A stretch of DNA of 63,420 bases, filler included, from Octopus bimaculoides (Eukaryota): the NCBI RefSeq assembly GCF_001194135.2. It is 9 parts of 8 records of this genome, joined end to end, with 100 filler letters (N's around TTAATTAATTAA, not from the genome) between each part and the next. Parts side by side here need not be neighbours in the genome. Positions count along the whole stretch, not along the records: positions 8,421 to 19,843 come from NC_068981.1; positions 19,944 to 32,708 come from NC_068982.1; 7 more parts are not named here. One strand, written 5' to 3'. A program made the translations under genes and the position numbers. Of this stretch, positions 10,421 to 20,892 are shown one piece after another. Each line of letters starts with the position of its first letter. Position 1 is the first letter of the stretch. The notes under the pieces are model-generated. The model was not told the origin of the DNA. It worked only from the letters and a program-made list of their open reading frames with translations, and ran no database searches.

Positions 10421-10480
10421 TTCCCTTCGTCGGCGTTCGACAGCTGATGACCTTGGTGAGAGAGACAAAAACCTGGCAAA
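10421..10480 (-). ncRNA. Partial hammerhead (5' half) plus foldback arm, remainder in gap
   Basis: 10421-10440 is identical to 10766-10785 (CGAACG-CCGACGA-AGGG on minus strand); 10441-10480 resembles the reverse complement of 10700-10740. Confidence 0.5.
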
Positions 10481-10588
10481 TTTATATCTTCTTTTCCAGT
10501 GAAATTCTTCACTGATATTGAAAAGGTGAAAACAAGCAATGTTAATTCTCTAAATGAAGTATTAACAGTAACTGCACGATAAAGTGTA

Positions 10589-10785
10589 GTATATTGCCAC
10601 TTAAGTGTGGCTGACCCCTAGGGGTGGATGTTACTGTTGCTTTTAGCCCCAGGAGGACATCTCCTCCAGCTGGCTTATCGACACACGACTGTGTCCTGTT
10701 TGCCAAGGGAAGTTATCCCTCTCACCTCGATCAGCAGCACGAACGTATCCGGATTTCAGGGTTATTTCCCTTCGTCGGCGTTCGA
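10589..10785. mobile_element. Foldback/MITE-like element arm ending in a hammerhead
   Basis: Shares TAGCCCCAGGA.GA.ATCTCCTCCAGCTGGCT..TCGACACAC with the palindrome at 20591-20892; truncated by (CA)n. Confidence 0.7.
10740..10784 (-). ncRNA. Minimal type I hammerhead ribozyme (U4C variant)
   Basis: Minus strand: CGAACG-CCGACGA-AGGG-AAATAA-CCCT-GAAA-T-CCGG-A-TA-CGTTCG. Perfect 6-bp stem I, 4-bp stem II, palindromic ATCCGGAT helix III and AUA triplet; core CCGACGA rather than CUGANGA. Confidence 0.7.
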
Positions 10786-10873
10786 TACACACATACACAC
10801 ACACACTCACACAAACACGCACACACACACACACACACATACACACACACACACAAACACGTACACATATGTG

Positions 10874-11190
10874 AAGGCGTGTGGTTTAGTGGTTAGAGCA
10901 TTTGGTTCACGGTCTTAAGGTTGTGCATTCAATTCCTGGTAAGGTGTTGTGTCCTTGAGCAAGACACTTTGTTTCACGTTGCTCCAGTCCACTCAACTGG
11001 CAAAATGAGTGCTACGGGTATTTCAAAGGCCAGCCTTGTCACACTGTGTATCACACTGAATCTCCCTGAGAATTATGTCATGGGTACACGTGTCTGTGGA
11101 GTGCTCAGCCACTTGCATGTTAATTTCACAAGCAGGCTATTTCCTTGACGGATCAACTGGAACCCTCGTCGTCGTAACCGTCAGGTTGCC
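10874..11190 (+). mobile_element. tRNA-CORE SINE family C
   Basis: Head GGCGTGTGGTTTAGTGGTTAG, GTGTCCTTGAGCAAGACACTT, body shared with 40350-40735. Confidence 0.8.
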
Positions 11191-11819
11191 AGTTTTATAT
11201 ACATAATGGTTTTAACTAGATTTCGAGCAATGTCATCATTTGATTGTTGTCTTAAAGCAACGTGACCTTTTAATCCTGCTTTTTCAAAAATGGACGATGT
11301 GACAACGAAATGCACCTCTCGCAGTCTGTATTCAGAGAGTTATCTCCCATGCTGACAAATGCCTTTATTTCATCATAGCATGTTTCATTGTTTGTCTTGA
11401 TCTTTTTTTTTGTTTTTGTTTTTACTACGGCCAGCCATAGAAATGAAGCGATGCTGTGCCTGAAACTTTTGAAAGTGAGGAAAGGTCTTGCACAAGGCCA
11501 ATCCCACTCACTAAACAACTTCTGCATTTCCCCAAAATAGAGAACTAGTCTACATCATTGGGTGCAAACAAAGTCGCAGATGTAACATCTGAGTTTCCTT
11601 TCTCTTAGATAGCTGCTAAACAAAGACTTGATGTTTTTCCCTCCTAGCTGTTGGATGGCTGTTGACACTACCTGAGTTCTTCCGACCATTGGCAGGTTTT
11701 GTTTTTCGCTCTGCAGGGTGTTAATCGAAAGCCATCATCCTTACTAAGCAGGCTTGATAGGGTTGTCGGTTTAGTCCGACCAAGCGACAGGTTGTACTAG
11801 GTTACATGTTATCAGCAGT

Positions 11820-12045
11820 AGAGGCGCGTGGATTAATGGTTGGGGTGTGGGACTCATGATCGTAAGAATGTGGTTTCGATTCCAGGATCAGGTGACGCGT
11901 TGTGTTCTTGAGCAAACAATTCATTTCACGTTGCTCCAGTTCGTTCAACTGGCAAAAATGGGTAATCCTGTGACGGACCGACGTCCCGTCCAGGTTGGGA
12001 ATATATACACCATAGAAAACGGGAAACTGGTCCTTATGATTCGAT
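11820..12045 (+). mobile_element. tRNA-CORE SINE family D
   Basis: tRNA-like head, TGTGTTCTTGAGCAA, CCTGTGACGGACCGACGTCCCGTCCAG; homologous to 31994-32215. Confidence 0.7.
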
Positions 12046-12321
12046 ATGATTTGAGAAGGTAACTTTACCCTATTTTTGTACATATTATGAATAGCAATGA
12101 GTCACCTGACTTAAAATATACACATATATTATAAGCACTATGGAGCAAGTGTGTTCCTTACATAGATTGCCTATAAAAAGAAGTAGTTTTCCAATACCAA
12201 ACTCATCACCAAACAGCTGTTCACGTTCGAATGGTATGGAACATGGTATGAAAAATGCGCATATCAACATATGTATGTATGTCATTGTTCAGTTTTATTT
12301 CAAGATTTCTTGCTAATAGAG

Positions 12322-12352
<31 letters not shown>

Positions 12353-12863
12353 CACACACCCACACATACACCCATACACCCCCCACACACATAAACACAC
12401 ACACCACACCATACATACGCACGCAGGTGCGCATACATTCGGTTAAATAAGCCGTTATGTGAAACTTGAAATCCCAGCTAACTCGAGCTTTACAAAAAAT
12501 TAAACTCTATTCTAGTATTGAGTCATTCCGTCAGTAAATGTTCCGCTGTTATTCTTTAACTATATTTAAAACAATTGCTTTAATTTTAAATTATATATAT
12601 ACATAGGCACATACATTATATGTATATGTAAATACATACATATATTAATATATATATATATANNNNNNNNNNNNNNNNNNNNNNNNNNNNNNNNNNNNNN
12701 NNNNNNNNNNNNNNNNNNNNNNNNNNNNNNNNNNNNNNNNNNNNNNNNNNNNNNNNNNNNNNNNNNNNNNNNNNNNNNNNNNNNNNNNNNNNNNNNNNNN
12801 NNNNNNNNNNNNNNNNNNNNNNNNNNNNNNNNNNNNNNNNNNNNNNNNNNNNNNNNNNNNNNN

Positions 12864-12928
<65 letters not shown>

Positions 12929-18627: not shown

Positions 18628-18632
18628 ATATG

Positions 18633-18666
<34 letters not shown>

Positions 18667-18710
18667 TATAGAATACAGATAAAATTGCGTCTAATGATGT
18701 AGTGTAATAA

Positions 18711-19030
18711 AAGATACCCTTCGGTCACGATTGACCATGCGATTGCACCTAGAAAGTTACCCTCCGAGGTATTATGCTATGGAAGACTAACAGTCGCCCA
18801 TGTATGCCAATCCCCCATCTCCACACCATTGCTGTTATTCAAGGGAAAGGCAAAGGCTGATATAGCTTGACACCAGTGACGTCGCAACTCATTTCTACGG
18901 CTGAGTGAATTGGAGCAACGTGAAATAAAGCGTCTTGCTCACGAACACAACATACAGACCAGTCTGAGAATGGAACTCATTACCTCGTGATTCTGAGACC
19001 GGCGCTCTAACCACTGAGCCATGAGACTTC
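18711..19030 (-). mobile_element. tRNA-CORE SINE family E
   Basis: Minus-strand head ..TGGCTCAGTGGTTAGAGCG, CORE-like TGTTCGTGAGCAAGACGCTTTATTTCACGTTGCTCCA, distinct tail. Confidence 0.65.
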
Positions 19031-19129
19031 ACATAGTGTAATAAGCATATGTAGAAAGTGCTCAGGTTCGGTTTCCACTAAAACTCCGGCTTTATGCACA
19101 GCGTCTTAGTATTTGTTGTTTTCTGGCAC

Positions 19130-19843
19130 AAGATACCAGGCAAAGCTAGTCCACCGGTAAGCTCACGAAGACCTTCTACCCCACCTTTTCTCCAGCAAGG
19201 ACATCATCTACATTGACTTAGTTCCCTCGGGCCAAACGGTCAAGAAAGAGTATTTTGTGAAGATTTTGAGGGCGTTCAGAAAGAAATGTTCTCAAAGATG
19301 GCCGGACCAATTACACCAAGGCAAAGCAGCAGTTCTCAGTTCCCTCCTGGTATAGGCGCAGGCGTGGCTCTGTAGTAAGAAGCTTGCTTCCCAACCACAT
19401 GATGATGATGATGATGATGATAACGACGGCGATGATGACGGTGACAATCCTCATGATGGATCAATTATTGCCTTATTATCTATCCAGGTGTTGGTGTGTT
19501 TATGTCCCCGTAATATAGCAGTTCGGCAAAAGAACCGATAGAATAAGTACTAGGCTTACAAAGAATAAGTTCTGGGGTTGATTTCTTCGACTAAAAAAAA
19601 ATCCTTTAAGGCGGTGCTCCAGCATGGCCGCAGTCAAATGACTGAAACAAGTAAAAGAATGAAAGAATAACCAGCCACTTGACAGAGGTGAGCACCAAAA
19701 CTGTCCTTCGCCCTCTCTACAATCCAGGCCTTGTTCCTTGTGGCTTTTTGCTGAAGTTACAAGGAACAAGCTGAAGAATATGAAGGAGGTTGTGACAAGG
19801 CTCCTGAAGACCTTCGCTCTGAAGGACTTCCAATAGGGACGCC
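19130..19843 (+). mobile_element. mariner transposase relic interrupted by SINE A (19355-19665)
   Basis: SSKDIIYIDLVPSGQTVKKEYFVKILRAFRKK before, and TKTVLRPLYNPGLVPCGF (degenerate YSPDLAPCD) after, the SINE. Confidence 0.7.
19355..19665 (+). mobile_element. SINE family A, internally rearranged
   Basis: Family A head, (GAT)n, family A right half ending GACTGAAACAAGTAAAAGAATG. Confidence 0.75.
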
Positions 19844-19943
19844 NNNNNNNNNNNNNNNNNNNNNNNNNNNNNNNNNNNNNNNNNNNNTTAATTAATTAAN
19901 NNNNNNNNNNNNNNNNNNNNNNNNNNNNNNNNNNNNNNNNNNN

Positions 19944-20240
19944 GAGTGTTTATTGAGCGAAAACACCTAAAGCTCCACGAGGCTCCGGCAGGGGATGGTG
20001 GCGAACCCTGCTGTACTCTTTCACCACAACTTTCTCTCACTCTTACTTCCTGTTTCTGTTGTGCCTGTAATTCAAAGGGTCAGTCTTGTCACACTGTGTC
20101 ACGCTGAATACCCCTGAGAACTACGTTGAGGGTACACATGTCTGTGGAGTGCTCAGCCACTTGCACGTTAATTCATGAGCAGGCTGTTCCGCTGATATGA
20201 TCAACTGGAATCCTCGACGTCGTAAGCGACGGAGTGCCAA
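19944..20240 (+). mobile_element. SINE family C, 5' part in gap
   Basis: Colinear with 40430-40735, ends GACGGAGTGCCAACA. Confidence 0.85.
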
Positions 20241-20590
20241 CACATGTATGTGTATATATATATATATACATATATTGTATGTCTACACGTGTGTATATGC
20301 AATTACTACAAGCCAAACTTTGTGAATGTTTTACAAGTTTTACATATTTCCACAGTTCCACCAATGTCGCGTAATTGCAATTTCCTAAACAACCGAGTTT
20401 TTCTAGTTTTGTAAACCCCTCTCGCAGCCAAACCAGTTAGTTACATATTCATCATCCCCAATAATTACAGGTATTCATCTAAAGCTATAGTCCAGTTGGA
20501 TCATCGATAGATTTCTCATTAGTTCGACACAGAGGTTTTGTTTTCCACTAATCTTTAACATTATCTCGTTAACATTTTAGTAACTCCGCT

Positions 20591-20892
20591 GATGCTACTG
20601 TAACTTGTAGCCCCAGGAAGATATCTCCTCCAGCTGGCTATTGACACACTATCTGTGCCCTGTCAGTATTTGCAAAGGAAAGTCCCATCGCCAACCGGTG
20701 ATTGTCACACGCTGAGGACGAGTCAATACCCAGAAACTCAGGTTGGAGATGGGAAGGATGGCTTCCCTTTGCAAATACTGATAGGACACAGAAAGTGTGT
20801 CAATAGGCAGCTGGAGGAGATGTCTTCCTGGGGCTACAAGCTACCGTAGCATCTCCCCTTAAGGGTTAGCCACATTTAGGTGGCAAATATAC
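20591..20892. mobile_element. Palindromic foldback element (~105-bp arms) with hammerhead-like loop
   Basis: Arms 20591-20696 and 20741-20853 are reverse complements; 20854-20892 matches the reverse complement of 10589-10628. Confidence 0.8.
20712..20746 (+). ncRNA. Degenerate hammerhead-like core in foldback loop
   Basis: CTGAGGA-CGAGT-CAAT-ACCCA-GAAA-C-TCAG-GTT-GG; core present, stems II and I mismatched. Confidence 0.4.

What the first reader, a model, noticed from the sequence alone, without database searches (positions are those of the whole stretch)
10421..20892. Foldback element family with a hammerhead at the apex of the hairpin
Seen: 20591-20853 is a palindrome with ~105-bp arms and a CTGAGGA..GAAAC-TCAG-GTT loop. 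The same arm at 10589-10740 leads into a different hammerhead (10740-10784, opposite strand), and 10441-10480 supplies a complementary arm. Inference: a non-autonomous family whose transcript is a long dsRNA stem capped by a self-cleaving ribozyme, with the ribozyme module differing between copies. I do not recall this architecture being described for MITEs or for PLE-derived elements.
Basis: partly seen in the sequence, partly recalled or inferred. Interest (0 to 1): 0.75.

Follow-up and report, generated by a model that had tools for sequence, protein, structure and literature searches.

The report
Retrozyme family with Penelope-style inverted copy
The hairpin and the hammerhead motifs are real, but they belong to a very abundant 345-base repeat that is likely a ribozyme-bearing parasite of Penelope-like retrotransposons, and the long mirror arm is likely a one-off insertion by-product around a ribozyme that lacks its cutting site, so this is an ordinary member of a known kind.

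Summary
Both loci are real and belong to one very abundant family. Locus A (10420-10785, minus strand) is a 345-nt non-coding unit bounded by two copies of a type I hammerhead motif; the second is cut by an assembly gap. That is the layout of an animal non-LTR retrozyme. Locus B (20591-20896) is a forward copy preceded head-to-head by a shorter inverted copy, with a 43-nt tail on one arm only, ending at (TA)n: the layout published for Penelope-like element (PLE) insertions. Contigs from public runs show that related copies carry 20 more bases after GAAACTC, holding the GTC cleavage triplet and the partner of stem I. B lacks them, so its 'TCAG-GTT' is a deletion junction, not a cleavage site. 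Other copies show arm-to-arm inversion joints at different breakpoints, at single-copy depth, all skipping the hammerhead. The two ribozymes sit on the same side of the shared body in the same sense. Cleavage, circular RNA and the mobilising enzyme were not shown. Verdict: new member of a known kind.

The parts
10441..10785 (-). Locus A: one complete 345-nt non-coding unit (44% G+C), hammerhead at its 5' end; abuts a (CA)n microsatellite at 10786
   Evidence: period from exact repeat 10420-10440 = 10765-10785; sequence; G+C
10740..10784 (-). Type I hammerhead motif A1: stem I CGAACG/CGTTCG, core CCGACGA (U4C variant) and GAAA, stem II 4 bp with 6-nt loop, palindromic stem III TCCGGA, predicted cleavage after AUA between 10746 and 10745
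   Evidence: descriptor scans; stem I and II pair probabilities 0.98-0.99 in the circular fold; no Rfam match
10420..10440 (-). 5' half of a second, identical hammerhead (A2), cut by the 642-N gap at 9778-10419
10443..10480 (-). 3' end of the unit; pairs with 10699-10738 in four helices (4+5+14+9 = 32 predicted pairs), extending stem I in a tandem or circular RNA
10585..10728 (-). Family body shared with locus B (78% identity), with four small hairpins
20591..20697 (-). Locus B: shorter inverted copy of the body, head-to-head with the forward copy; its left junction is single-copy
   Evidence: one contig at depth 48.2 spans 20490-20620 without differences (table 8)
20698..20711 (+). 5' strand of stem I and its extension (ends in CACACG); partner strand missing at this locus
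   Evidence: partner CGTGTG present in loose ends of 37 (X3) and 43 (X7) contigs (table 7)
20712..20739 (+). Remnant hammerhead core CTGAGGA...GAAACTC; 20 nt with the GTC triplet and the 3' strand of stem I are absent between 20739 and 20740
   Evidence: (table 7)
20740..20853 (+). Forward copy of the family body (right arm of the palindrome)
20854..20896 (+). 43-nt tail present on the forward arm only, followed by a (TA)n microsatellite
   Evidence: the family continues past 20896 as unit A does (table 7)
55700..55739 (+). Solo hammerhead related to A1 inside (TA)n: near-identical stem II, a different palindromic stem III (CTCGAG), GUC triplet, 3-bp stem I, one extra base in the core
   Evidence: no Rfam hammerhead match

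Best explanation
This is a very abundant non-coding repeat with a 345-nt unit and a type I hammerhead motif at the unit boundary, likely a non-LTR retrozyme (or solo pseudo-LTR) copied by Penelope-like retrotransposon enzymes, and the palindrome at 20591-20853 is likely a one-off inverted insertion whose hammerhead lacks its cleavage site. Steps: (1) shown: hammerhead-unit-hammerhead order at A, high abundance, microsatellite neighbours. (2) inferred from known retrozymes: tandem transcripts are cut at each hammerhead, probably as dimers through the palindromic stem III, giving 345-nt monomers that may circularise into a self-paired RNA with the hammerhead on a 32-pair imperfect stem. (3) inferred: a PLE reverse transcriptase/GIY-YIG protein copies the RNA into AT- or CA-rich sites and often leaves a shorter inverted copy head-to-head with the main copy and a tail on one arm only. 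(4) inferred: at B the inversion joined within the natural complementarity of the unit's two ends, which is why a hammerhead core sits at the apex; 20 nt were then lost and the arms decayed.
For: Tandem hammerheads 345 nt apart, 44% G+C fit mollusc retrozymes of 350-390 bp (PMC7229834). A1 has helix I 6 bp, II 4 bp and a short palindromic III, the canonical metazoan type I layout (PMC4209133). Stem III stays palindromic while its letters change (TCCGGA at A1, CTCGAG at 55729, CCCGGG in X3 loose ends; CTCGGG in X7 needs G-U pairs); cofolding two copies of A1 pairs these stems between molecules. Summed contig depth peaks at 541,533 and 701,503 against 46-48 on the unique flank. Head-to-head layout with one-sided tail and microsatellite targets are published PLE marks. 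6 of the 15 joints shown in table 5 and 5 further ones in table 5c go from left arm to right arm, at different breakpoints, all skipping 20712-20737; the six are one contig per run at depth 23-81. B's arm differences are 2 G-U, 3 A-C and 3 transversion-type, with no G-U excess; at the 5 of 8 where one search gives a majority letter, it restores the pair. A PLE remnant in the same window shows the same head-to-head inversion around 45640.
Against: No Rfam hammerhead match at A, B or 55700. A1 carries U4C, reported to lower activity considerably in vitro (PMC3088659), and an A-U pair at the base of stem II; 8 of 9 Xenopus retrozymes tested showed no cleavage. Stem II of the B type pairs at only 2 of 4 positions and one search lists no majority correction there. 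The array at A is cut by a gap, so only one unit plus 21 nt is seen. Only 1 of the 6 table-5 joints has a shorter side of 30 nt or more, 21 joints were not shown, and copies colinear with B cannot be counted as joints. No autonomous PLE sharing this sequence was found (no genome held). No target-site duplication seen at B.
Confidence: 0.8

Rival explanations
1. The sequence is the pseudo-LTR end of an autonomous PLE family: A is a partial tandem of pLTRs, B a stump insertion with inverted pLTR and tail, and no independent circular RNA cycle exists. This differs from the best explanation only in autonomy.
For: PLE insertions are often 5'-truncated partial tandems with inverted copies and tails; Xenopus retrozymes are sister to pLTRs; depth falls towards the 5' end of B's forward copy.
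Against: The 345-nt unit has no ORF remnant that matched two PLE-type proteins (hits only at 44440-47273); helix sizes are those of canonical tandem-repeat hammerheads rather than the minimal PLE type with large helix II.
Confidence: 0.3
2. A B-type subfamily has fixed the long inverted arm, so its transcript is a 100-bp double-stranded stem capped by an active hammerhead.
For: Depth over 20672-20699 is 8,400-14,400, about 180-300 times single copy, and over 20700-20713 is 23,000-34,000; the inner left arm shares features with A's native 3' end (weak: score 10.5 against 9.0 for A's mirror, and 27.5 for B's own mirror).
Against: Mirror placements of right-arm contigs can give that depth (614 and 581 contigs fit two places); inversion joints shown skip the hammerhead; no G-U excess between the arms; B itself lacks the cleavage site; A has no long arm.
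Confidence: 0.1
3. A MITE or foldback DNA transposon that captured a hammerhead.
For: Long inverted arms at B; high copy number.
Against: Arms are unequal (43-nt one-sided tail), the family continues beyond both arm ends (table 7), A holds the body without a mirror, no TSD seen, and A is tandem.
Confidence: 0.03

Closest known systems
Animal non-LTR retrozymes (Cervera and de la Pena 2020, PMC7229834; Li, Clavereau and Pollet 2026, 10.64898/2026.07.22.740005), notably the 350-390 bp Mytilus repeats
   Same: Type I hammerhead per unit, unit size, G+C under 50%, no ORF, self-paired predicted circle, co-existence with PLEs
   Different: U4C core at A; host looks like a cephalopod (recalled from repeat content, not tested), and neither 'octopus' nor 'cephalopod' occurs in the main text of PMC7229834; expression and circularity not shown here
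PLE insertions with inverted pLTR and tail (Arkhipova 2013, PMC3846280; Craig 2021, PMC8557442; Frangieh 2024, PMC11167929)
   Same: Head-to-head shorter inverted copy at the 5' side, palindromic junction, 30-40 bp tail on one arm, AT-rich or microsatellite targets
   Different: No ORF attached; the junction at B falls inside the unit's own end-to-end complementarity, leaving the hammerhead core at the apex
Canonical and minimal metazoan type I hammerheads that act as dimers (Cervera and de la Pena 2014, PMC4209133)
   Same: Helix I 6 bp, helix II 4 bp, short palindromic helix III; high variability among motifs within one genome
   Different: A-U or unpaired base of stem II in place of the usual G10.1-C11.1; B is defective

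Membership tests
Non-LTR retrozyme | Type I hammerhead in each unit | tested here: met
   A1 complete by descriptor, A2 identical over the 21 nt visible; Rfam did not match
Non-LTR retrozyme | Tandem units of about 150-450 bp | tested here: inconclusive
   345-nt period seen once; rest in a 642-N gap; one 'goes back' joint in run X7
Non-LTR retrozyme | Non-coding, G+C under 50% | tested here: met
   44% G+C; no hit of three PLE-type proteins at A or B
Non-LTR retrozyme | Highly self-paired predicted circular monomer | tested here: met
   -122.6 kcal/mol for the 345-nt circle; z -9.5 against 60 shuffles for a circle one base too long
Non-LTR retrozyme | Self-cleavage and accumulation as circular RNA | not testable with these tools
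   only contigs, no raw reads; five runs guessed as RNA hold 71-77% of A's words, which may be DNA
Non-LTR retrozyme | Co-existence with PLEs | tested here: met
   RT- and GIY-YIG-type remnant at about 44600-47270; Pfam scores of the homolog are below the curated cut-offs
PLE-type insertion (inverted pLTR) | Shorter inverted copy head-to-head at the 5' side | tested here: met
PLE-type insertion (inverted pLTR) | 30-40 bp tail at one end only | tested here: met
   20854-20896, 43 nt, slightly longer than the published range
PLE-type insertion (inverted pLTR) | Microsatellite or AT-rich target | tested here: met
   (TA)n after B, (CA)n beside A, (TA)n around the solo motif; the window is microsatellite-rich, so this is weak
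PLE-type insertion (inverted pLTR) | Sequence shared with the pLTR of an autonomous PLE | not testable with these tools
   no genome held; no match of A or B to the PLE remnant beyond a 13-nt chance hit
MITE / foldback DNA transposon | Terminal inverted repeats that define both ends in all copies | tested here: not met
   A lacks the mirror; family sequence continues beyond both arm ends
MITE / foldback DNA transposon | Fixed short target-site duplication | tested here: inconclusive
   none evident by eye at B; A's far end is in a gap

The most novel reading that the evidence does not exclude
The extended stem I of this retrozyme is a built-in fold-back priming site, so PLE enzymes repeatedly generate hammerhead-capped long hairpins; a subfamily of some hundreds of such loci makes self-trimming double-stranded RNA that feeds RNA editing or small-RNA silencing in the host.
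Probability: 0.1. Interest if true: 0.6.

Novelty: new member of a known kind. Interest (0 to 1): 0.27.

Why it matters
It adds a very abundant retrozyme-type family, with at least two hammerhead subfamilies on a conserved body, in what looks like a cephalopod. It links such a family to PLE mobilisation through insertion geometry (inverted copy, one-sided tail), where published support rests on co-occurrence and pLTR similarity. With thousands of copies, the inversion breakpoints could test the self-priming model for PLE head-to-head inversions. It does not show a new RNA architecture.

Tried and rejected
Exact-pattern scans found nothing in viral contigs, metagenome contigs or prokaryote genomes. 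Rfam: the whole-window scan was dominated by microsatellite look-alikes of microRNA families (150 of 235 rows shown); no hammerhead at A, B or 55700. The repeat finder was swamped by microsatellites. Pfam found nothing telling in five window ORF fragments, and a word-based homolog search with the 45611 fragment found none. Type II and III readings of B's loop were considered by eye and rejected: no stems fit. Depth in the two RNA-guessed runs (X16: 144 contigs, X15: 2) cannot be read as expression. The first circular fold used 346 nt and was redone with 345. Comparing B's inner left arm with A's native 3' end was indecisive. 'Opposite strand' joints were not counted as inversions, since mirror placement makes most of them colinear. 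Paper searches with no hit: retrozyme + head-to-head + inverted; hammerhead + foldback + MITE + ribozyme. Earlier-finding look-ups by sequence, place and a long word list were empty.
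Full report
Setting. The window is AT-rich, microsatellite-dense animal DNA with many gaps. From recall of its repeats I take it for a cephalopod; this was not tested. No whole genome is held.

Locus A. On the minus strand, 10784-10740 reads as a type I hammerhead: stem I CGAACG/CGTTCG, core CCGACGA and GAAA, a 4-bp stem II with a 6-nt loop, the palindrome TCCGGA as stem III and an AUA triplet. A descriptor with these spacings found three core hits in the window (10778, 20712, 55703); 2 of 3 met the strict stem criteria, against 0.13 core hits and 0 strict hits per window in 30 shuffles (the descriptor was shaped on these loci, so the control is generous). 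Rfam did not match it. Bases 10420-10440 equal 10765-10785, so a second hammerhead begins 345 nt on and runs into a 642-N gap. The 345-nt unit is 44% G+C. Folded as a circle it gives -122.6 kcal/mol, with stems I and II at probability 0.98-0.99 and four helices (32 pairs, the last one weak at 0.37) joining 10699-10738 to 10443-10480; a version one base too long scored z -9.5 against 60 shuffles.

Locus B. The palindrome is real. Its right arm and a further 43 nt (to 20896) match A's body at 78%, and A minus aligns with B plus from the hammerhead onward: both hammerheads precede the body in the same sense. The left arm is a shorter inverted copy, head-to-head. In the alignment B has a 16-nt gap just after GAAA, and its loop has no stem I and 2 of 4 pairs in stem II.

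Family evidence. Twenty of 24 listed runs hold A or part of it, 19 with at least half of its 31 words; ten are flagged as possible sources of this DNA. I laid four of the 24 runs on 20490-20898 at 80% likeness; all are contigs. In the DNA-type runs X3 and X7, 2,928 and 2,841 contigs were laid. Summed depth is 46-48 on the unique flank, 19,000-43,000 on the hammerhead bins and up to 541,533 and 701,503 on the arm. The tool warns that this is no copy number; it indicates an order of ten thousand for the body and hundreds for the B-type core. Loose ends at 20738 (37 and 43 contigs) and 20739 (8 in X3, 3 in X16) supply what B lacks: the rest of stem III, a GTC triplet and, in the larger groups, CGTGTG, the partner of CACACG at 20706-20711; the smaller groups differ at one to three of those six letters. 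The X16 consensus rejoins B at 20740 after 20 nt. Related copies thus carry a complete hammerhead core layout and B has lost its cleavage site; that the loss is private to B is inferred. No variant reached 10% of depth in 20700-20741, so the weak stem II may be a subfamily trait, which I cannot explain. Beyond 20896, 70 and 78 contigs continue as unit A does. Table 7 hides 482 further loose ends.

Is the long arm a family trait? Of 15 joints shown (21 hidden), 6 go from left arm to right arm, and table 5c adds 5 more. Their breakpoints differ, all skip the core at 20712-20737, and the six are single contigs at depth 23-81; two appear in both DNA runs. Only one has a shorter side above 30 nt, and copies colinear with B would not be listed as joints. 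Between B's arms (20591-20683) there are 85 Watson-Crick pairs, 2 G-U, 3 A-C and 3 other mismatches. At five of the eight the majority letter among laid contigs restores the pair, three of them at 96-99%; three are undetermined. At two paired positions both arms carry the same minority allele. This fits two arms copied from one template and then decaying without selection for an RNA helix.

Comparator in the window. A decayed element at about 44600-47270 matches two longer proteins over RT-like and endonuclease-like parts (tblastn E down to 5e-31); one has sub-threshold Pfam GIY-YIG and RVT_1 hits. Its DKT motif and C-terminal endonuclease fit the Hydra clade of PLEs as described in PMC8557442. 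It is itself a head-to-head inversion centred near 45640. Such inversions are therefore not peculiar to this family.

Literature. PMC3846280 (passages) describes PLE inserts completed by an adjacent, shorter inverted pLTR, a 31-bp tail on one of them and palindromes at head-to-head junctions, read as self-priming. PMC8557442 (passages) generalises this and notes microsatellite bias. PMC11167929 (passages) explains the tail by two internal RT start sites. PMC7229834 (passages and section 14) defines animal retrozymes, with 350-390 bp units in mussel. 10.64898/2026.07.22.740005 (parts 1-3 of 5) derives them from PLE pLTRs and found cleavage in 1 of 9 tested. PMC4209133 (passages) gives the canonical helix sizes, dimer action and high within-genome variability. 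PMC3088659 (passages) reports U4C as weaker in vitro but viable in a viroid. PMC6962438 (passages) counts 235 hammerhead loci in giant squid; PMC13282606 (passages) lists recently active Penelope families in Octopus vulgaris and has no occurrence of 'ribozyme' in its main text. Searches for retrozyme + hammerhead + octopus (two papers listed, neither title about this), and (none), found no description of this family; supplements and repeat libraries were not seen.

Mechanism and verdict. Shown: tandem hammerhead layout, abundance, shared body, inverted copy with one-sided tail, B's missing 20 nt, heterogeneous inversion joints. Inferred: cleavage as dimers, circular monomers, copying by a PLE protein, fold-back within the unit's end-to-end complementarity. 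Retrozyme versus solo pLTR of an unseen autonomous PLE cannot be settled here and the two overlap. A subfamily with a fixed long arm is not excluded (depth at 20672-20699 is ambiguous), at about 10%. New member of a known kind; interest 0.27.

Noticed in passing
window 44560-47300: Decayed, internally deleted PLE remnant with DKT motif and C-terminal GIY-YIG-type domain (Hydra-clade-like), arranged as a head-to-head inversion with arms of about 900 bp centred near 45640, and a further small inversion near 44590.
   Followed up: partly
window 44844-45039: Separate small insertion inside the inverted PLE arm with 47-bp inverted arms (91%), a perfect short palindrome near 44970-44990 and a possible degenerate hammerhead-like stretch on the minus strand.
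   Followed up: no
window 55700-55739: Solo hammerhead related to A1 sitting in (TA)n, with a different palindromic stem III and one extra base in the core.
   Followed up: partly
window 38780-38831 (minus): Hammerhead-like motif with canonical core; weak Rfam Hammerhead_3 hit (20.8 bits, E 0.016 on a 111-nt search, gathering 48.5), followed by three short tandem copies of about 14 nt.
   Followed up: partly
window 49093-49386: Another palindrome of about 294 bp (79% self-complementary), unrelated to the family; MITE-like by eye.
   Followed up: no
window 20504-20559: Left flank of locus B matches a low-copy repeat (depth 390-880 against 46-48 single copy).
   Followed up: no
run X15, record 2: A 253-nt contig from a run labelled with a different organism has loose ends identical to locus A, and two such runs hold 74-77% of A's words: the A subfamily may be near-identical across two species labels.
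   Followed up: no
window 25647-27196, 33569-33931, 36336-37184: ORF fragments that look, from recall, like LINE RT and endonuclease, LTR integrase and a restriction-like endonuclease; the last had no Pfam hit.
   Followed up: no
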